Shown here: positions 1,372 through 7,740 of the stretch, piece by piece
How the letters are laid out: each line of letters opens with the position of its first letter
Position numbering within the stretch: the stretch's first letter is position 1
NCBI GenBank assembly: GCA_013306035.1
Contig: JABUBF010000011.1
Location: forward strand, 30,217-37,964
Length of the DNA stretch: 7,748 bases
Direction: 5' to 3'
Source: Nitrososphaerota archaeon
GTDB taxonomy: Archaea; Thermoproteota; Nitrososphaeria; Nitrososphaerales; UBA57
Made by a program: the position numbers and the translations under genes
Notes under the pieces: model-generated
Database searches by the model: none
What the model was told of the DNA's origin: nothing
The model's input: the letters and a program-made list of their open reading frames with translations, nothing else

Positions 1372-1983
1372 TTGATAAATGATGACAAAATAACTGAATT
1401 AGTAGACGCATTGAATATTTGTCAATCATTTAAATTTGGTACATATACGCTGAGCAGTGGAAAATCCAGTTCATATTATCTCGATCTTCGATTAATTCAG
1501 AGTTATCCTGAATATTATAAAATTATTATTGATTCTTATATAAATTTGATAAAAAATATTGGTGTTGATTCATTTGATTATATATGTGGCATTGCAACTG
1601 CGGGTTTAATTTTTTCTGTTCCTGTATCTATTTCTTTAGGCAAACCCCATGTATATATTCGCAAATCAAAAAAGAACTATGGCCGGGAACAAAACCTTGA
1701 GGGAAATCTCAAAGCTAATTCGCGTGTATTACTGATTGACGATATATTTACTACTGGTTCATCTTTAATTGATGGATTTAATGTAATTCATGATTCAGGT
1801 GGAAAAGTCTCTTCTGCAGTAGTTCTTATTGATAGATTGGAAACATCTCATTCAATTTTTAATTCTATAAATATGAAACTGTCTAGTGTCGCAAATATTA
1901 TTGACATTGCAAATGTTCTCTTCTCGAAATCTATAATTGATGATAAACAAAAAAATATTATCCTATCTAATGTTATTGATTAA
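1372..1983 (+). CDS. pyrE: Orotate phosphoribosyltransferase
   Basis: 203 aa. N-terminal FKFGTYTLSSGKSSSYYLDLR is the OPRTase signature region (FGxFxLxSGxxSxYYxD). VLLIDDIFTTGSS is the type-I PRTase PRPP-binding loop. TTG at 1372 is the only start available: in-frame TGA lies at 1351-1353 and there is no ATG near the N-terminus. Confidence 0.9.
   Translation: MINDDKITELVDALNICQSFKFGTYTLSSGKSSSYYLDLRLIQSYPEYYKIIIDSYINLIKNIGVDSFDYICGIATAGLIFSVPVSISLGKPHVYIRKSKKNYGREQNLEGNLKANSRVLLIDDIFTTGSSLIDGFNVIHDSGGKVSSAVVLIDRLETSHSIFNSINMKLSSVANIIDIANVLFSKSIIDDKQKNIILSNVID
1949..1955 (-). terminator. Oligo-T(7) tract on the minus-sense strand, candidate tbp terminator embedded in the pyrE coding sequence
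   Basis: A7 on the plus strand (pyrE codons KQKN) reads as T7 on the tbp sense strand, 25-31 nt past the tbp stop. Archaeal RNAP terminates at oligo-T runs. Confidence 0.3.
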
Positions 1984-2537
1984 TACAACATTAAATTCTT
2001 CTTTTCTAATAAATTATGAAGATTATTTACTGCATTTTTGACCTGTGACTCTATTTTTGCTCCAGTACATACTAATTTTCCACTTGAAAATATCAAGATT
2101 ACTGTTTTTGGTTTTTTCATTCTATAAATTAACCCAGGAAATTGTTCGGGTTCATACATAGAATTTGATAATTGCCTCGCTGCTTCCTCTAAATCTATTT
2201 TTCCACCCAAGTCTACTGAAGCTACTATGTTTTGAATAGTGATTATTGCACTCTTTTCAATTTTAATTTCATTTTCTTTAAGGTTGGATACTACGGAATT
2301 TATAGCAATTTTAGCCATCTTTTCAGATTTACCGCCTGTGCAAACCATTTTTCCAGAACTAAATATCAATATTGCAGTTTTTGGATCCTTTATTCTAAAA
2401 ACTAATCCAGGAAATTGCTTTGGATGATATTCTACATGTGTAAATTTTTTGGTTATTTCAATTAAATCTATCTGTTGATTAATTGTTGCAGATGCCACTA
2501 CATTTTCAATTTTAATTTTTGGTATTGTTTCTGCCAT
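1980..2537 (-). CDS. tbp: TATA-box-binding protein (TBP)
   Basis: Two direct TBP repeats are present. Repeat 1: IENVVAS...QFPGLVFRIKDPKTAILIFSSGKMVCTGGKS. Repeat 2: IQNIVASVDLGG...EQFPGLIYRMKKPKTVILIFSSGKLVCTGAKI. The track starts at TTG 2552 (MNYRIM...). I prefer ATG 2537 (MAETIPKIKIEN...) because a TATA-like CTTAAATAG (2574-2566) would sit only about 18 nt from 2552 but about 33 nt from 2537. Confidence 0.93.
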   Translation of the reverse strand: MAETIPKIKIENVVASATINQQIDLIEITKKFTHVEYHPKQFPGLVFRIKDPKTAILIFSSGKMVCTGGKSEKMAKIAINSVVSNLKENEIKIEKSAIITIQNIVASVDLGGKIDLEEAARQLSNSMYEPEQFPGLIYRMKKPKTVILIFSSGKLVCTGAKIESQVKNAVNNLHNLLEKKNLMLY

Positions 2538-2565
2538 AATTCTATAATTCAAAAATCAAATCAAT

Positions 2566-2610: not shown

Positions 2611-3108
2611 TTATTTTTTCTTTACTTCATTTGTCAATAAAATTAATACAACAAAAAATATAATGTAATAATTAACTGGAGGTGATAACCATATGGTTAT
2701 TTTCCCTATTGATGGGACTGATGTAATCACTGTTCCAATATAATCCTTTTCAAGAATTGTCCATCCATCAACTTTTGGATTATTATCTCCTTTAGTTTTA
2801 ATTTCTATTCCTTTCTCTCCTTCTTCATCTATTGAATTAACTCTATGCACAATTACTCTTTTTGAATCGGTAGGTAATGTAAATACAATTACATCTCCTA
2901 CTTCTAATTCATCATAATGATTTCTTCCATTTACAATTATTATATCTCCAACTTGTAATACTGGTTTCATACTTCCACTACTTACAACAAAGAATGGTGT
3001 ATCATTTTGAATTATTGTAGTTGCTCCAATCCAAATTCCTCCAATTACTAATATAAATAATATTAGTGGCAAAATATCTTTAACTAAATTTTTTATTATT
3101 ACTTGCAT
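2611..3108 (-). CDS. Signal peptidase I, archaeal/ER type (S26B, SipW/Sec11-like)
   Basis: N-terminal TM segment, then SSGSMKPVLQVGDIIIV (nucleophile Ser box), VIVHRV (general-base His instead of the bacterial Lys), KGDNNPKVDG (GDNN box), and a C-terminal TM anchor (YYIIFFVVLILL). The track starts at TTG 3117. ATG 3108 (MQVIIKN...) fits better with the TATA-like box at 3130-3139. Confidence 0.9.
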   Translation of the reverse strand: MQVIIKNLVKDILPLILFILVIGGIWIGATTIIQNDTPFFVVSSGSMKPVLQVGDIIIVNGRNHYDELEVGDVIVFTLPTDSKRVIVHRVNSIDEEGEKGIEIKTKGDNNPKVDGWTILEKDYIGTVITSVPSIGKITIWLSPPVNYYIIFFVVLILLTNEVKKK

Positions 3109-3129
3109 TTTAATCAAATGTATATTTTT

Positions 3130-3141: not shown

Positions 3142-3381
3142 TTACCATAGAGCATCTGATTTTTGATCATTGTTTTCTGATAATTCAATTCTTTTTGAAT
3201 TTTTACCCATCCATCTTACTGATATTAAATTTAATATTTCTAAATGCAATAATACTTTGTTTATATCATTTTTATTCGTCTCTATGTTTTGCTTTTTCAG
3301 TAATTTTATTAATTCTACATCCGTTGTATTCTTTTCAGATTTGATTAAATCATAAATTACATTCTTTAATGGTAGAACCAT
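3142..3381 (-). CDS. Small hypothetical protein, winged-helix-like by sequence pattern
   Basis: 79-aa ORF with an ATG start. Helix-helix-helix-hairpin pattern: NVIYDLIKSEK / TDVELIKLLKK / NDINKVLLHLEILNLISV / RWMGKNSKRIEL. It is followed by a polar/acidic tail ending in DALW. No family recognised. Coding is supported by length, strand context and the TATA-like box upstream. Confidence 0.55.
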   Translation of the reverse strand: MVLPLKNVIYDLIKSEKNTTDVELIKLLKKQNIETNKNDINKVLLHLEILNLISVRWMGKNSKRIELSENNDQKSDALW

Positions 3382-3430: not shown

Positions 3431-3808
3431 TTAAATTGTATCTTTTTTTGCATCTATTATGGCATTATTTTTTATGTATTCTCTAATACTATTATAATTA
3501 TTTATATAATTATTAATTAACTTCTTTATTTCTGCAAATAGATTTACTTTATCACTTTTTGAATTATAATTATAACTAGTCAATTTCTCATTAAGATTTA
3601 TTCTGATATCATTCTGATTATTAATCATATTAGATAATTCTGAATTATTAATTCCTACATCCGAATATCCTTTATCTATTTCTTTTTCAATTAATTCTAA
3701 TTCCTTTAATATCTCAACAAATTCAGGAAAATTATTTGGATGCGCATAGTCTTTAACAACTGATATCACACTGCGATCTAATTCATGTAGAAATCTCAAA
3801 TCTTGCAT
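3431..3808 (-). CDS. Hypothetical protein, predicted all-helical, Asn/Ile/Lys-rich
   Basis: 125-aa ORF with an ATG start, on the same strand as its neighbours. No recognisable motif. The N-terminal half (LRFLHELDRSVISVVKDYAHPNNFPEFVEILKELELIEKEI) looks like real protein rather than low-complexity shadow. Confidence 0.5.
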   Translation of the reverse strand: MQDLRFLHELDRSVISVVKDYAHPNNFPEFVEILKELELIEKEIDKGYSDVGINNSELSNMINNQNDIRINLNEKLTSYNYNSKSDKVNLFAEIKKLINNYINNYNSIREYIKNNAIIDAKKDTI

Positions 3809-3969: not shown

Positions 3970-4167
3970 ATGGGTATTATGGGAATATTAAAATCCAATT
4001 CCAACAATAATGCAGGAAATAGCCCAGAATTGAACTTCTATGATGTCAAAGGACGTCAGAAATTTAATTCTACTAAATATAGCATTGTTGTAAAAAGTGG
4101 ACGCAGATTTGCAGTGTCAAAAGCTCCATCAGGAATAGATGCATATAGAATAATCGGTAAAGCATAA
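3970..4167 (+). CDS. Small basic protein, DUF5679-like (zinc-ribbon-like) core without cysteines
   Basis: 65 aa, 11 K/R against 3 D/E, no Cys. The core FYDVKGRQKF...VKSGRRFAVSKAPSGIDAYRIIGKA resembles the DUF5679 pattern as I remember it (YCxKC[KR]...KNGR...CPxCGxKx[FY]RIxGK). Two hairpin/oligo-T terminators follow. The start could be M1 or M4. Confidence 0.65.
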   Translation: MGIMGILKSNSNNNAGNSPELNFYDVKGRQKFNSTKYSIVVKSGRRFAVSKAPSGIDAYRIIGKA

Positions 4168-4256: not shown

Positions 4257-6141
4257 AAATTCTTTTCAAGTATTCAATTCCTAATAAATCAAATAATATT
4301 TCTAATGAATCTTTAAATGAATTAACAAGATAAAGTCTTGCATTCATTATATCTTTGTCTTCTTCGTGCAATACTGGACTCTTTTCATAAAATGAATTGA
4401 ATAAATTGCAAAAATTATACGTGAATTTTGCTATTCTCATTGGCGACATATTTATCACTGATTCTTCAATAATTAGATCAATTTTTGACATATTCTTAAT
4501 CAATTCAATCTCATGCTGTAAGGAAAGATGCCTATGAATATCTTCAATAAATTCTATTTTAGGTTGATTTTTTGCTTTTTCTAATATACTTGTAGCCCTG
4601 GCAAATGTATATAGTAAATATGGACCTGTTTCACCATCTAATCTTAATGAATTTTCTAAATCAAAAATAATAATTTTATTTAAATCATTTTTTAATAATT
4701 CATATCTAAAGGAAGCTACTGAAATGATTTCTGCTGTATTTCTTATCCAATCTTCATTTTTTTCCGAGTTTCTTAATTTAGTTTCTTCATATACTTTGTT
4801 CTTAATTATATTCAATGTATTATCTACATTAATGTACATTCCTTTTCTTCCAGACATCTGAATAATTTTCTTATCTTCTGTTTTTATTCCTAATGTTTTT
4901 GCAGTTCCTTTACTTAATGACACAACTTCATAGCTAAGATGTTCATACGTTCTATCTTTATTCTCATTAAATCTATTCAATATTTCTTTAATAATTTTCT
5001 GCAATCGACTTTGTCTTGCATCAATTAATGTTATTGCTTTTGAATTGTTTGTAAATTTAGTTTTATTATCAGTTTTGTTTAATGTTGAAGATAATAATTT
5101 ATTATTCTGGCTATCAAACACTTTATAATTAAAAATTTCATCAATTATTCCAATTTTCCATGCAGCTAGTACTATATCTTTTGCAATATATGTAGAGGTG
5201 CCATCGCTTCTGATTATTACTTTGTCTGTTTCATTTTTAAATGTAGTTTTAACAATCCATGCTCCATTTAATTCTCCTTCTTTTTCTAATTTGATTATAT
5301 TCTCATCTTTCATTTTTTCAAAAATTTCTTTCCATCCATTAGAGAATATTATATCTGATTCAAATACTAGCAAATCATATTCTGCCCCTAATCTTTTTGC
5401 TGTTTCTAATTGCGCTTTTAATATTTTGTTTGTTATTTCTTTTGCGTATTGTCTTATTTCTGATTTTTTTTCTAATTGTTTTAAAACATACTCTCTTTTT
5501 TCTACTAATTCTTTTCTTGTCTCGTATAGTTCGTTCATCTTCACATATATTTTATCTCCTGCATATTCGTCGAATTTCATATCATCTTCTGGTATTTCAT
5601 TAAATCCTGCATATTTCAAACCTACAATTATATCCGCTACCTGTAATCCTGAGTCATCAATGTAATTCATTACTGTCAAATCATGTCCTGTGAATCTTAG
5701 CATTCTTGCTAACGTGTCTCCTATGAATAAATTTCTTGCATGCCCAATGTGCAATGCTTTGTTTGGATTCACACTTGTATGTTCTAATATTATTTTCTGA
5801 TTCTTTCCTATATTTACTGAATCCTTAAGCTGATCAACATTAGTTTTTAGTGTTTCTTCACACAAGTTCTTATAATTAATTTTAAAATTAATATAACCTG
5901 GTTTTGATACTTCTGCTAATATTGAATCATTGAATTTTAGCTTTTTTTGTATATCTTCTGCTATATTCATTGGATTTTTTTTTATTGGTTTTGATAGAGT
6001 AAACGGTATATTTGTATATAGCTCTCCAAATTCGGGATTTGTATTCTCTTTTATTTGATATTCTATCTTGGGATAATTATTCTCTTGTAAAACTTTGTCT
6101 ACTTCTTCTTTAATTATTGATTTATATTTTTTAAATATCAA
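4255..6141 (-). CDS. argS: Arginyl-tRNA synthetase
   Basis: 628 aa. The class-I HIGH motif sits in HTSVNPNKALHIGHARN. An ArgRS-type degenerate KMSKS region is present (QMSGRKG). The C-terminal anticodon-binding (DALR-type) helical domain includes ETGPYLLYTFARATSIL. Start is TTG at 6141: in-frame TGA lies at 6153-6151 and the next ATG is codon 58. Confidence 0.95.
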   Translation of the reverse strand: MIFKKYKSIIKEEVDKVLQENNYPKIEYQIKENTNPEFGELYTNIPFTLSKPIKKNPMNIAEDIQKKLKFNDSILAEVSKPGYINFKINYKNLCEETLKTNVDQLKDSVNIGKNQKIILEHTSVNPNKALHIGHARNLFIGDTLARMLRFTGHDLTVMNYIDDSGLQVADIIVGLKYAGFNEIPEDDMKFDEYAGDKIYVKMNELYETRKELVEKREYVLKQLEKKSEIRQYAKEITNKILKAQLETAKRLGAEYDLLVFESDIIFSNGWKEIFEKMKDENIIKLEKEGELNGAWIVKTTFKNETDKVIIRSDGTSTYIAKDIVLAAWKIGIIDEIFNYKVFDSQNNKLLSSTLNKTDNKTKFTNNSKAITLIDARQSRLQKIIKEILNRFNENKDRTYEHLSYEVVSLSKGTAKTLGIKTEDKKIIQMSGRKGMYINVDNTLNIIKNKVYEETKLRNSEKNEDWIRNTAEIISVASFRYELLKNDLNKIIIFDLENSLRLDGETGPYLLYTFARATSILEKAKNQPKIEFIEDIHRHLSLQHEIELIKNMSKIDLIIEESVINMSPMRIAKFTYNFCNLFNSFYEKSPVLHEEDKDIMNARLYLVNSFKDSLEILFDLLGIEYLKRI

Positions 6142-6848: not shown

Positions 6849-6869
6849 AATTATTTTCCCTTTATCTAG

Positions 6870-6877
6870 TTCTTAAA
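6870..6877 (-). promoter_or_regulatory. Weak TATA-like box upstream of the HAD phosphatase gene
   Basis: TTTAAGAA on the minus sense strand, centred about 26 nt upstream of ATG 6848. The 55-nt spacer has no sense-strand oligo-T, so read-through from the upstream gene is equally plausible. Confidence 0.2.
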
Positions 6878-6903
6878 CTTGTTTTATTATTTAGTTTCTC
6901 TTA

Positions 6904-7740
6904 CTATAATATTATTAAGACTACTTTGGAAATTATGTCTTCAAATCTAATTACTCCGTCTACCTCTGTGTTATGTATTCCTTTCATAAGATATCCCTCA
7001 TTTTGAATTTCTATTATTTGATGTAATATCATTTGATCTTTACACCAATCAAATTCACATTCATACGCAATCATGTCCCCTACATTCAGATCATTTCTTG
7101 TGAAGCATGTAGTCTCTATATAATAAGAATTCGACGAAGGCAAAGCAGGTGCCATTGACCATCCTTCACCTCTTCCTAGTCTCAAACATCCAAGTGGTTG
7201 TTGTGAATTGAATACTAATGAATCCTCAGATAAATAACAACCTTCTATACACTTTCCTGAATACTTCAAAATGTTAGATGTTAATGGCGCTACATTTCTA
7301 TGTTTATCCCATAGATCCCATATTTCTTTCAGTTTGTCATATTTTACTGTCAAATTATTTATGTTAACTTGTAATATTGTCTTTTCTAATTCCATCTCAT
7401 TTTTAAGATCCTTTAATTTCTTAATCTCTTCCTTATCTAATTCATCATTAACTTTACGTCTGGTAATTTCATTATCTAATTCATTAATTTGCTTATCCAA
7501 TCTAACTATGTCTTGTTTCTGATTATTGATCTCTACATCGAGCTTGGTCAGATTAAATTCCAGAGTTGCAATGTTATTTTTATTTGATATTTGTTCTTGC
7601 CTGAGGTCTCTTATTTGTTCATCTTTGTATTGAATTGATCCCTGTAATTCGTTGACCTGTGGATTTAGTCCCAAGTACCCAATTCCTATTCCTATACCTA
7701 TGCCTATTACTAAATACAGTAATACTGTGGATTTTATCAT
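6904..7740 (-). CDS. Membrane-anchored coiled-coil protein with a C-terminal divergent S26 (signal-peptidase-like) domain
   Basis: 278 aa with an ATG start. Residues 5-25 are hydrophobic (VLLYLVIGIGIGIGIGYLGL). Residues 35-147 are free of Pro and Gly, charge-rich and heptad-like. Residues about 190-278 align with the window's own signal peptidase: GWSMAPAL/SGSMKPVL, NVGDMIAY/EVGDVIVF, MILHQII/VIVHRVN, KGIHNTEVDG/KGDNNPKVDG. Confidence 0.8.
   Translation of the reverse strand: MIKSTVLLYLVIGIGIGIGIGYLGLNPQVNELQGSIQYKDEQIRDLRQEQISNKNNIATLEFNLTKLDVEINNQKQDIVRLDKQINELDNEITRRKVNDELDKEEIKKLKDLKNEMELEKTILQVNINNLTVKYDKLKEIWDLWDKHRNVAPLTSNILKYSGKCIEGCYLSEDSLVFNSQQPLGCLRLGRGEGWSMAPALPSSNSYYIETTCFTRNDLNVGDMIAYECEFDWCKDQMILHQIIEIQNEGYLMKGIHNTEVDGVIRFEDIISKVVLIIL
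7678..7707 (-). repeat. Imperfect hexanucleotide tandem repeat encoding (Ile-Gly)x5 within the TM anchor
   Basis: Minus-sense codons are ata ggc ata ggt ata gga ata gga att ggg. That is five Ile-Gly units, with four different Gly codons among the five. Confidence 0.8.

What the first reader, a model, noticed from the sequence alone, without database searches (positions are those of the whole stretch)
6904..7740. S26 signal-peptidase-like domain held on a ~113-residue coiled-coil stalk above a membrane anchor
Seen: the protein has an N-terminal TM anchor (res 5-25). A 113-residue Pro/Gly-free, heptad-like segment follows (res 35-147, nt 7300-7638). The last ~90 residues align box by box with the canonical signal peptidase at 2611..3108. 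The boxes are the Ser box GWSMAPAL (S195), VGDMIAY, the His box MILHQII (H240), and KGIHNTEVDG in place of KGDNNPKVDG. Established: in S26 signal peptidases the nucleophile Ser follows the anchor within a few residues, so the active site sits on the membrane surface. In the archaeal enzyme, Ser, His and a conserved Asp were reported as essential (Methanococcus voltae mutagenesis, from memory). Here Ser and His are kept, but the Asp of the GDNN box is Ile. The inserted helix would span roughly 17 nm if continuous (0.15 nm per residue). Inference: this is unlikely to be a housekeeping signal peptidase. One option is a protease displayed away from the membrane, at S-layer or pseudo-periplasm distance. 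The other is a catalytically impaired substrate-binding module on a stalk, similar in logic to bacterial EnvC (coiled coil plus degenerate LytM domain). I know of no characterised protein with this architecture. No sense-strand oligo-T separates it from the HAD phosphatase and argS downstream, so it may be co-transcribed with housekeeping genes.
Basis: partly seen in the sequence, partly recalled or inferred. Interest (0 to 1): 0.78.

Follow-up and report, generated by a model that had tools for sequence, protein, structure and literature searches.

The report
Sec11-type protease on a coiled-coil stalk
A marine ammonia-oxidiser-type archaeon (Nitrosopumilales) encodes, besides its normal signal peptidase, a second copy of that protease whose catalytic head keeps its active-site residues but sits at the end of a long coiled-coil rod above the membrane. 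This is a conserved, uncharacterised design that probably cuts proteins in the cell envelope rather than membrane-embedded signal peptides.

Summary
ORF 6904-7740(-) encodes 278 aa in three parts. There is an N-terminal signal-anchor (res 5-25). There is a roughly 120-residue coiled coil in one unbroken heptad register, with Ile-rich a positions and Leu-rich d positions. The C-terminal domain is a true homologue of archaeal/ER-type (S26B, Sec11/SipW) signal peptidase: hhalign gives 99.6% probability, a family profile hits human SEC11C at E=2e-8, and Foldseek matches the S24/S26 fold.

The Asp replaced by Ile255 corresponds to SEC11A Asp116, a structural residue that salt-bridges Arg97. Here the Arg partner is also replaced (Gln241), and the two changes covary perfectly across 93 sequences. 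The residues aligned to the real triad, Ser195-His240-Asp261, are invariant or nearly so.

The protein belongs to a wider Nitrososphaerota family of about 27 clusters at 50% identity. All have the head at the extreme C-terminus, lack the usual C-terminal TM, share an invariant Cys pair, and carry stalks of 45-297 residues. A canonical housekeeping peptidase lies at 2611-3117.

Most likely this is an active envelope endopeptidase held away from the membrane. It is a new architectural variant of a known enzyme family; its substrate is unknown and I found no characterised member.

The parts
6904..7740 (-). Whole gene: 278-aa type II membrane protein made of anchor, coiled-coil stalk and S26B peptidase head
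   Evidence: ORF; 25 close homologues at 77-96% identity, same start; coordinates checked by translation
7666..7728 (-). N-terminal signal-anchor, res 5-25 (TVLLYLVIGIGIGIGIGYLGL). Inferred topology is N-in, C-out.
   Evidence: Hydropathy. Family members with longer N-termini carry Lys/Arg-rich or zinc-ribbon segments before the TM, which fits the positive-inside rule.
7297..7659 (-). Coiled-coil stalk, res 28-148. The a positions are Ile-rich (VIIQILIIIIDIKKIYWR) and the d positions Leu-rich (LKLNLLQLLRDLMLLLW). Polar core residues R95, D99 and D102 form a possible hinge.
   Evidence: register and a/d residues; AF2 helices 27-98 and 103-148, pLDDT up to 96; indels against P0060 are 7, 21 and 7 residues; no indel in 18 homologues
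7285..7320 (-). Stalk-head junction motif W141-D-L-W144-D-K-H147-R-N-V-A151-P152. The family consensus is W..W..H.[ND][LV][AS]PQ.R.
   Evidence: Pro in 27/28, small residue before it in 22/27, 37-54 residues before the Ser
7189..7296 (-). N-terminal extension of the head, res 149-184, holding clade-specific Cys164 and Cys168. It corresponds to the FPDP.NC region of the wider family.
   Evidence: the AF2 model is only moderately confident here (pLDDT 55-68)
6907..7188 (-). S26B (Sec11/SipW-type) peptidase core, res 185-278. It ends in a beta-strand (SKVVLIIL) and has no C-terminal TM.
   Evidence: TIGR02228 hit in 28/28 members; SEC11C/A; hhalign 99.55%; AF2 pLDDT 81, Foldseek to LexA, UmuD', SpsB, LepB
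7156..7158 (-). Ser195 codon, predicted nucleophile (box B, SMAP). Aligns to SEC11A Ser56.
   Evidence: present in 26/28 diverse members
7018..7023 (-). His240-Gln241 codons. His is the predicted general base (SEC11A His96). Gln replaces the Arg97 salt-bridge partner.
   Evidence: both invariant in the family
6976..6978 (-). Ile255 codon, in place of the structural GDNN Asp (SEC11A Asp116)
6958..6960 (-). Asp261 codon, predicted third triad member (SEC11A Asp122)
   Evidence: invariant in the family
7186..7188 (-). Cys185 codon, one of the family-invariant Cys pair and a presumed disulfide partner of Cys212
   Evidence: invariant C53 and C80 of A2
7105..7107 (-). Cys212 codon (TTCF motif), the second invariant Cys
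2611..3117 (-). Canonical housekeeping archaeal signal peptidase I of the same genome. Ser49 lies about 13 residues after the N-terminal TM. It has HR and GDNN boxes and a C-terminal TM. It serves as the comparator, not as part of the stalked protein.
   Evidence: Peptidase_S26 at 7.3e-9; TIGR02228 at 95.9 bits, above cut-off
6865..6878 (-). Invariant GTTTAAGAACTAGA block in the 55-nt spacer. Its TATA-like TTTAAG lies about 29 nt before the HAD start codon, so it may be a separate promoter for HAD-argS.

Best explanation
The gene encodes an extracytoplasmic serine endopeptidase of the archaeal/ER signal-peptidase lineage (S26B) that has been moved off the membrane surface.

Shown:
- An N-terminal signal-anchor.
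- A heptad-perfect coiled coil of about 120 residues.
- A conserved Trp-rich junction.
- A compact S24/S26-fold head whose Ser195, His240 and Asp261 align with the catalytic triad of human SEC11A/C. This head ends without the C-terminal TM of ordinary archaeal enzymes.
- The one 'missing' Asp is the structural one. It has been swapped together with its Arg partner for an Ile/Gln pair.

Inferred:
- The topology is N-in, C-out.
- The stalk forms a parallel dimer, from Ile at a and Leu at d. It would then be roughly 17-18 nm long.
- The invariant Cys185-Cys212 pair forms a disulfide.
- The head is active and cleaves soluble, S-layer-associated or otherwise envelope-located proteins in the pseudo-periplasm. 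It probably cuts after small residues, as signal peptidases do. It cannot reach signal peptides still embedded in the membrane, which are handled by the canonical enzyme at 2611-3117.

The substrate is unknown.
For: Homology and fold:
- TIGR02228 hits all 28 diverse family members, best E=2.1e-16.
- hhalign against canonical peptidases gives 99.55% probability, E=1.9e-23.
- The family profile hits SEC11C at 2e-8 and SEC11A at 1.9e-6, with Ser/His/Asp columns aligned.
- The AF2 head model has pLDDT 81.4 and pTM 0.72.
- Its top Foldseek matches are almost all S24/S26 proteins, with probability near 1.0.

Catalytic competence:
- H240, D261, M196 and P198 are invariant, and S195 is present in 26/28 members, at 24-41% identity.
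- SEC11A Asp116 is structural and Asp122 is catalytic.
- HQ pairs with G[I/T/F/L] in 67 sequences and HR pairs with GD in 26, with no mixed case.

Distance from the membrane:
- 171 residues separate the TM from Ser195, against about 13 in the canonical paralogue.
- The heptad register is continuous.
- Indels in the coil come in multiples of seven.
- The clade of 18 homologues has no indel at all.
- Family stalks span 45-297 residues with the head always at the C-terminus.
- Some short-stalk members appear to start with cleavable signal peptides, read by eye. That would mean the head also works untethered.

Extracytoplasmic location:
- The Cys pair is invariant.
- Other members have basic or zinc-ribbon N-termini before the TM.

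Precedent: the STABLE protease bound to the tetrabrachion stalk of Staphylothermus (PMC5744192).
Against: - No activity, substrate or expression data exist.
- The target scores below the curated cut-offs: 27 bits against 51.85 for TIGR02228, and no Pfam S26/S24 hit at E<=1.
- I could not read model coordinates, so Ser-His-Asp geometry is inferred from alignment and not measured.
- The AF2 monomer breaks the helix at res 99-102, where core positions are R95, D99 and D102. A fold-back hairpin that brings the head nearer the membrane is therefore not excluded.
- Two family members lack the Ser: Ala in P0061 and Phe in P0041.
- No conserved gene partner points to a substrate.
Confidence: 0.55

Rival explanations
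1. A specialised signal peptidase that still works at or near the membrane. The stalk folds back on itself as an antiparallel hairpin, or lies along the membrane. The head then processes a particular set of membrane-anchored precursors, much as SipW serves TasA/TapA in Bacillus.
For: The AF2 monomer breaks the helix at 99-102, with very high pLDDT on both flanking helices. Three consecutive core positions there are charged: R95, D99 and D102. 22/28 family heads also match the SipW model. A conserved type II membrane protein of 215 aa always lies next to the gene in Nitrosopumilales.
Against: One heptad register runs across the putative turn. The arms would be unequal, at 72 and 46 residues. 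Insertions relative to P0060 are +28 residues in one arm and +7 in the other. Stalk length varies from 45 to 297 residues, and P0037 keeps a single register over its 297. AF2 monomers often fold long coiled coils into false hairpins (my own knowledge).
Confidence: 0.18
2. A catalytically dead or weakened substrate-binding module on a stalk. This is the first reader's EnvC-like option: a scaffold or regulator rather than a protease.
For: The GDNN Asp is lost. Scores fall below curated family cut-offs. Two family members have Ala or Phe in place of the nucleophile. In one genome (L010) a stalk-only paralogue lies directly upstream of a full-length family member (P0059), which hints at non-enzymatic roles for the stalk.
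Against: His, Asp and the SM.P box are invariant, and Ser is present in 26/28, across sequences only 24-41% identical. That conservation is hard to explain without catalysis. The lost Asp is not catalytic in SEC11A, and its salt-bridge partner is co-replaced. No FtsEX-like partner appears in any of the nine loci inspected.
Confidence: 0.12
3. A self-acting module. In one version the conserved linker H.[ND][LV][AS]-P lies in the active-site groove as a built-in pseudo-substrate, giving auto-inhibition until a signal displaces it. In the other version the head cleaves its own linker, as LexA and UmuD do, and is shed from the stalk.
For: The best Foldseek matches are the self-cleaving LexA and UmuD' domains. 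The conserved small-residue-Pro motif lies 37-54 residues before the Ser. In LexA, UmuD and lambda cI that spacing is about 35-38 (my own knowledge). Pro at P1' makes a sequence an uncleavable competitive inhibitor of type I signal peptidase (my own knowledge).
Against: P3 is mostly Asn, Asp or Glu rather than a small neutral residue. Pro at P1' argues against self-cleavage at that bond. The Pro may simply end the helix. AF2 confidence in this segment is low, at pLDDT 55-68. The catalytic base is His, not the Lys of S24 self-cleavers.
Confidence: 0.08

Closest known systems
Archaeal/ER-type signal peptidase I (MEROPS S26B: Sec11, human SEC11A/C, M. voltae and Haloferax Sec11a/b; NCBIfam TIGR02228)
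   Same: Same fold and the same conserved boxes. Ser195, His240 and Asp261 align with the SEC11A triad Ser56, His96 and Asp122. The closest sequence relatives by every profile method are of this type.
   Different: The nucleophile lies 171 residues from the anchor, against about 13. There is no C-terminal TM. The structural Asp116-Arg97 salt bridge is replaced by Ile255 and Gln241. The head adds an invariant Cys pair and an N-terminal extension. It scores below the curated cut-off (27 against 51.85 bits). The same genome has a canonical enzyme.
Bacillus SipW (ER-type signal peptidase dedicated to the biofilm matrix proteins TasA/TapA)
   Same: It is an S26B paralogue kept alongside housekeeping enzymes for a special substrate set. 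22/28 family heads match the SipW model.
   Different: SipW is membrane-embedded with its active site at the membrane surface, and it sits in an operon with its substrates. No such operon was found here.
STABLE protease on the tetrabrachion stalk of Staphylothermus marinus
   Same: It is a protease displayed in the archaeal pseudo-periplasm on a membrane-anchored coiled-coil stalk. A review calls it the only reported enzymatic S-layer component (PMC5744192). This is the closest match in how the system would work.
   Different: STABLE is a subtilisin bound non-covalently to a four-stranded right-handed stalk of a separate S-layer protein. Here the protease is S26-type and is fused to its own heptad stalk.
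Bacterial coiled-coil hydrolase activators and enzymes (EnvC, CwlO, PcsB)
   Same: Each is a long coiled coil carrying a C-terminal hydrolase-fold domain outside the membrane. One family member is even auto-named 'CwlO-like'.
   Different: Those act on peptidoglycan and are driven by FtsEX. EnvC's domain is degenerate. Here the host has no murein (my own knowledge), no FtsEX-like neighbour was found, and the catalytic residues are intact.
S24 self-cleaving domains (LexA, UmuD', lambda cI)
   Same: They are the best structural matches to the compact head (Foldseek probability 1.0, target-normalised TM 0.64-0.70). They also have a conserved segment N-terminal to the Ser.
   Different: They use a Ser-Lys dyad, are cytoplasmic, and cleave at Ala-Gly or Cys-Gly. 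Here the base is His with an Asp, the domain is extracytoplasmic, and the motif is Ala/Ser-Pro.

Membership tests
S26B archaeal/ER-type signal peptidase I (Sec11/SipW; TIGR02228) | S24/S26 (clan SF) beta-barrel protease fold | tested here: met
   AF2 head model has pLDDT 81.4 and pTM 0.72. Top Foldseek hits are LexA, UmuD', SpsB and LepB with probability near 1.0.
S26B archaeal/ER-type signal peptidase I (Sec11/SipW; TIGR02228) | Box B nucleophile Ser in an SM.P motif | tested here: met
   S195-M-A-P aligns to SEC11A Ser56 and to Ser49 of the window's canonical enzyme. Present in 26/28 family members.
S26B archaeal/ER-type signal peptidase I (Sec11/SipW; TIGR02228) | Box D His as general base (the ER type has His where bacterial enzymes have Lys) | tested here: met
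   H240 is invariant and aligns to SEC11A His96.
S26B archaeal/ER-type signal peptidase I (Sec11/SipW; TIGR02228) | Box E catalytic Asp (SEC11A Asp122) | tested here: met
   D261 is invariant and aligns to Asp122.
S26B archaeal/ER-type signal peptidase I (Sec11/SipW; TIGR02228) | Box E GDNN Asp salt-bridged to the Arg that follows the catalytic His (SEC11A Asp116-Arg97) | tested here: not met
   The positions are I255 and Q241 instead. The replacement is coupled across 93 sequences with no mixed case.
S26B archaeal/ER-type signal peptidase I (Sec11/SipW; TIGR02228) | Score at or above the curated family cut-offs | tested here: not met
   TIGR02228 gives 27 bits against a 51.85-bit cut-off. There is no Pfam Peptidase_S26 or S24 hit at E<=1. 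Only 2-3 of 28 relatives give weak Pfam hits.
S26B archaeal/ER-type signal peptidase I (Sec11/SipW; TIGR02228) | TM anchor directly before the nucleophile, so that the active site abuts the membrane surface | tested here: not met
   171 residues, mostly coiled coil, lie between the TM end and S195. The canonical paralogue has about 13. There is no C-terminal TM.
S26B archaeal/ER-type signal peptidase I (Sec11/SipW; TIGR02228) | Removes Sec signal peptides from pre-proteins | not testable with these tools
   Needs an enzyme assay.
S24 self-cleaving repressor-type peptidases (LexA/UmuD) | Ser-Lys dyad and an Ala-Gly or Cys-Gly self-cleavage site | tested here: not met
   The base position is His. 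The conserved upstream motif is [AS]-Pro.
Two-stranded parallel coiled coil | Continuous heptad periodicity with hydrophobic a/d positions | tested here: met
   71% hydrophobic a/d positions in one register over res 28-150. Ile at a and Leu at d. Indels come in multiples of seven. AF2 predicts helix.
Two-stranded parallel coiled coil | Parallel homo-oligomer rather than an intramolecular hairpin | not testable with these tools
   Only monomer prediction was available. The helix break at 99-102 leaves this open.
FtsEX-controlled coiled-coil hydrolases (EnvC/CwlO/PcsB) | Genomic or functional link to an FtsEX-type ABC transporter, with a murein-hydrolase-fold head | tested here: not met
   No such neighbour in nine loci. 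The head is S26-type, not LytM, NlpC or CHAP.

The most novel reading that the evidence does not exclude
The stalk acts as a molecular ruler. A rigid dimeric rod, about 17 nm long in this clade and invariant in length there, holds an active Sec11-type site at a fixed height in the pseudo-periplasm of marine Nitrosopumilales. There it matures or trims S-layer or other envelope proteins at a defined plane. The conserved Ala/Ser-Pro junction motif might gate it as a built-in pseudo-substrate. This would be the first genetically encoded stalk-mounted protease of an archaeal envelope, and a signal-peptidase active site working with no membrane contact.
Probability: 0.22. Interest if true: 0.8.

Novelty: new variant of a known kind. 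Interest (0 to 1): 0.58.

Why it matters
Type I signal peptidases are textbook examples of proteases whose specificity comes from sitting on the membrane surface. A conserved family keeps that catalytic machinery but mounts it 45-297 residues away on a coiled coil. This shows the fold has been recruited for a different job.

The hosts are Nitrososphaerota. The close relatives of this gene recur in many ocean metagenome assemblies, including Tara Oceans. How these archaea build and maintain their envelope, including S-layer anchoring and maturation, is largely unknown.

The protein gives a concrete, expressible handle on that question. It has an ectodomain with three obvious point mutants. It also offers a natural test of how much signal-peptidase specificity depends on the membrane. 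For annotation, one relative is already auto-named 'signal peptidase I' and others 'CwlO-like' or 'Lpp'. All of these names would mislead.

Tried and rejected
1. The word-indexed homologue searches returned almost only close relatives. The exhaustive phmmer search with the head alone was needed to reveal the family.
2. The full-length AF2 model built from the shallow alignment was useless for the head (pLDDT below 50). The job was repeated on the head with a diverse alignment.
3. A single-sequence search of PDB found nothing meaningful. The family profile was needed.
4. I looked for a conserved operon partner or substrate in nine loci and found none beyond Nitrosopumilales. The recurring HAD hydrolase neighbours belong to different HAD families and lie in different orientations, so I treat them as residual synteny.
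5. I considered a cytoplasmic location for the head. I rejected it on the basic or zinc-ribbon N-termini and the invariant Cys pair.
6. I considered self-cleavage at Ala151-Pro152. It is unlikely because Pro is at P1' and P3 is polar.
7. I looked for a measured pseudo-periplasm width in Nitrosopumilus. No number was found, so the idea that the stalk reaches the S-layer could not be checked.
8. I looked for a homologue in a cultured strain. Only metagenome-assembled genomes turned up.
9. The Bardy 2005 paper was not held in the library. I used reviews and the SEC11 structure preprint instead.
10. Model coordinates are not exposed by the tools, so the triad geometry could not be measured.
Full report
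**1. What is in the sequence**

The window is AT-rich (21-33% G+C) and archaeal. It carries a TATA-binding protein gene, arginyl-tRNA synthetase, a HAD phosphatase, a phosphoribosyltransferase and a canonical archaeal signal peptidase.

The finding is the ORF at 6904..7740 on the minus strand, 278 aa. Close homologues (77-96% identity, 25 clusters) come from ocean metagenomes, including Tara Oceans assemblies. Two genome bins carry the gene, named 'uncultured Nitrosopumilales archaeon' and 'Thaumarchaeota archaeon UBA223'.

- The hydrophobic segment at res 5-25.
- The stretch at res 35-147 with no Pro and no Gly, 41% charged.
- The four boxes GWSMAPAL, VGDMIAY, MILHQII and KGIHNTEVDG.

**2. 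The stalk**

- One heptad register runs from res 28 to 150, with 71% hydrophobic residues at a/d.
- The a positions read VIIQILIIIIDIKKIYWR and the d positions LKLNLLQLLRDLMLLLW.
- Ile at a with Leu at d is the classic pattern of two-stranded parallel coiled coils. This follows Harbury's rules and rests on my own knowledge.
- The 18 full-length close homologues have no indel at all.
- Against a 33%-identical relative (P0060), the gaps in the coil are 7, 21 and 7 residues, so the heptad phase is preserved.
- AF2 predicts helices 27-98 and 103-148, with pLDDT up to 96.

One caveat applies. The helix break at 99-102 coincides with three charged core positions (R95, D99, D102). A hinge, or a fold-back hairpin, therefore cannot be excluded with a monomer prediction.

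**3. The head**

The target alone gives only sub-threshold evidence:
- TIGR02228 (archaeal signal peptidase I) at E=3.4e-6, 27 bits against a 51.85-bit cut-off.
- No Pfam S26/S24 hit.
- BLASTP at E=1e-4 to the window's own peptidase.

An exhaustive phmmer search with res 148-278 found 52 cluster representatives at 29-50% identity. In nearly all of them (all the HQ-type ones) the match ends at the last residue of the protein.

I aligned 28 of them as alignment A2. This turned the weak signal into a firm one:
- All 28 match TIGR02228 (best 2.1e-16), and 22 match SipW.
- The A2 profile finds human SEC11C (2e-8) and SEC11A (1.9e-6) as the best solved structures.
- hhalign against an alignment of canonical enzymes gives 99.55% probability, E=1.9e-23 over 87 columns.
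- AF2 on the head with A2 gives pLDDT 81.4 and pTM 0.72.
- Its top Foldseek matches in PDB are almost all S24/S26 proteins: LexA, UmuD', lambda cI, S. aureus SpsB and E. coli LepB. Probability is near 1.0 and target-normalised TM is 0.64-0.70 for the small LexA/UmuD' domains.

**4. Is it catalytically competent?**

The alignments place Ser195, His240 and Asp261 on SEC11A Ser56, His96 and Asp122.

The human signal peptidase complex study states three things (bioRxiv 10.1101/2020.11.11.378711):
- These three residues form the triad.
- Asp116, the Asp of GDNN, points into the core and salt-bridges Arg97.
- The Asp116 mutant keeps activity, while Asp122 mutants are dead.

A review of archaeal enzymes likewise reports that only one of the two conserved Asp is essential (PMC2913515).

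In the target the Asp116 position is Ile255 and the Arg97 position is Gln241. Across 93 sequences in hand, HQ goes with G-[I/T/F/L] 67 times and HR goes with G-D 26 times, with no mixed case. The salt bridge was therefore replaced as a pair.

Within the diverse family the invariant residues are H240, Q241, D261, M196, P198, G221, D222 and G254. Ser195 is present in 26/28 members. This pattern is what one expects of an active enzyme, not a degenerate binding domain. I could not measure the triad geometry, because model coordinates are not exposed.

**5. What sets the family apart**

The HQ-type relatives share these features:
- The head sits at the extreme C-terminus and ends in a beta-strand (VVAIIY; SKVVLIIL here), with no C-terminal TM. 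The canonical enzyme at 2611-3117 does have a C-terminal TM.
- A Cys pair is invariant (Cys185 in FPDP.NC, Cys212 in TTCF). The target clade adds two further Cys pairs.
- A junction motif W..W..H.[ND][LV][AS]PQ.R is conserved.
- An N-terminal TM is followed by a coil of 45 to 297 residues.
- Some members add a cytoplasmic zinc ribbon or a Lys/Arg-rich tail before the TM, which fixes the topology as N-in, C-out.
- Some short-stalk members look as if they start with cleavable signal peptides. I read this by eye and did not test it.

Named members come from Nitrososphaerota/Thaumarchaeota, 'Thermoproteota' and one 'Bathyarchaeota' bin. Their database names are 'hypothetical protein', once 'signal peptidase I', once 'CwlO-like' and once 'Lpp'.

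More distant hits keep HR/GD. Several of these also have a spacer between the anchor, or a lipobox-like signal, and the head. Detachment of this head from the membrane surface may therefore be more widespread.

**6. Genomic context**

In Nitrosopumilales the gene sits in a conserved block: a 115-aa protein, then a 215-aa type II membrane protein and the stalked peptidase in either order, then HAD and argS. The 215-aa neighbour is 64% identical between two clades whose peptidases are only 33% identical.

Outside that order the neighbours differ completely, so no substrate or partner can be inferred. In L010 a stalk-only paralogue (zinc ribbon, TM, coil, no head) lies directly upstream of the full-length gene.

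However, it contains an invariant GTTTAAGAACTAGA block whose TATA-like part lies about 29 nt before the HAD ATG in five loci. A similar ATTAAGAA lies at the same distance before the peptidase ATG in L001. Separate, possibly leaderless, transcripts are as likely as an operon.

**7. Interpretation**

Best supported (about 0.55) is an active Ser-His-Asp endopeptidase of Sec11 ancestry, displayed on a probably dimeric stalk in the pseudo-periplasm. It would act on envelope or secreted proteins, while the canonical enzyme handles signal peptides.

The rivals are:
- A hairpin stalk that keeps the head near the membrane as a SipW-like specialised signal peptidase (about 0.18).
- A non-catalytic binding module (about 0.12).
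- A self-inhibited or self-cleaving module using the conserved Ala/Ser-Pro linker (about 0.08). P1 is small in 22/27 members, but P3 is mostly Asn, Asp or Glu.

The closest functional analogue is the STABLE protease on the tetrabrachion stalk of Staphylothermus. A review calls it the only known enzymatic component of an archaeal S-layer (PMC5744192).

**8. Novelty and verdict**

Two full-text searches found no description of this architecture. The protein is homologous to S26B peptidases but fails four membership features:
- The curated score cut-offs.
- The Asp-Arg salt bridge.
- The anchor adjacent to the nucleophile.
- The C-terminal TM, which the canonical paralogue in this window has.

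I therefore class it as a new variant of a known kind, not an ordinary signal peptidase and not a new fold. Interest is moderate to high. The design is unexpected for this enzyme class and occurs in ocean Nitrososphaerota, but function and substrate remain wholly inferred.

Noticed in passing
window 1980-2552 (-): A TATA-binding protein gene (Pfam TBP E=3e-63) lies between the canonical signal peptidase and the phosphoribosyltransferase gene, and overlaps the latter by 4 nt. At the same place in the related loci L001 and L006 the gap is only about 60-190 nt and holds no TBP gene. This TBP copy is therefore a lineage-specific insertion or loss.
   Followed up: partly
window 6865-6878 (-), spacer between the stalked peptidase and the HAD gene: An invariant GTTTAAGAACTAGA block occurs in five loci whose flanking spacer sequence varies. 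Its TTTAAG lies about 29 nt before the HAD start codon. A similar ATTAAGAA sits at the same distance before the peptidase start in L001 (3537-3544). These may be archaeal promoters of leaderless mRNAs.
   Followed up: partly
L001 2888-3535 (+); L012 1678-2331 (+): A conserved 215-217-aa type II membrane protein has a Lys-rich N-terminus, one TM, and a roughly 150-aa extracellular domain with a C-terminal GCC motif. It has no Pfam match. It always lies next to the stalked peptidase in Nitrosopumilales, but on opposite sides in two clades. It is 64% identical between those clades, while the peptidases are only 33% identical. It could be a partner or substrate, or merely syntenic.
   Followed up: partly
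L010 6337-6963 (+): A stalk-only paralogue (zinc ribbon, TM, coiled coil; 208 aa; no peptidase head) lies directly upstream of the full-length family member P0059, and its N-terminus is very similar. This suggests hetero-oligomeric stalks or head loss.
   Followed up: no
distant hits P0050, P0072, P0052, P0058, P0071, P0075: These are Sec11-like heads with normal HR/GDNN boxes. They also lack a C-terminal TM and lie 40-100 residues after an N-terminal signal. Two start with lipobox-like sequences (LTAC, LIGC). Signal-peptidase heads detached from the membrane surface may be more widespread than the Nitrososphaerota family.
   Followed up: no
window 6138-6141 and 1980-1983: There are two 4-nt gene overlaps: HAD stop with argS start (co-directional, likely translationally coupled), and the phosphoribosyltransferase gene with the TBP gene (convergent).
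   Followed up: no
window 3970-4167 (+), 3142-3381 (-), 3431-3808 (-): Three small ORFs (65, 79 and 125 aa) have no family match, but genes of matching size, order and relative strand were called in L001 and L002. They are probably real genes of unknown function.
   Followed up: no
window 7156-7299 region; residues C164, C168, C228, C233: The target clade has two extra invariant Cys pairs (C-x3-C and C-x4-C) beyond the family-wide pair. The P0060/P0049 clade has different extra pairs at other positions. These could be additional disulfides or a metal site; this is unresolved.
   Followed up: no
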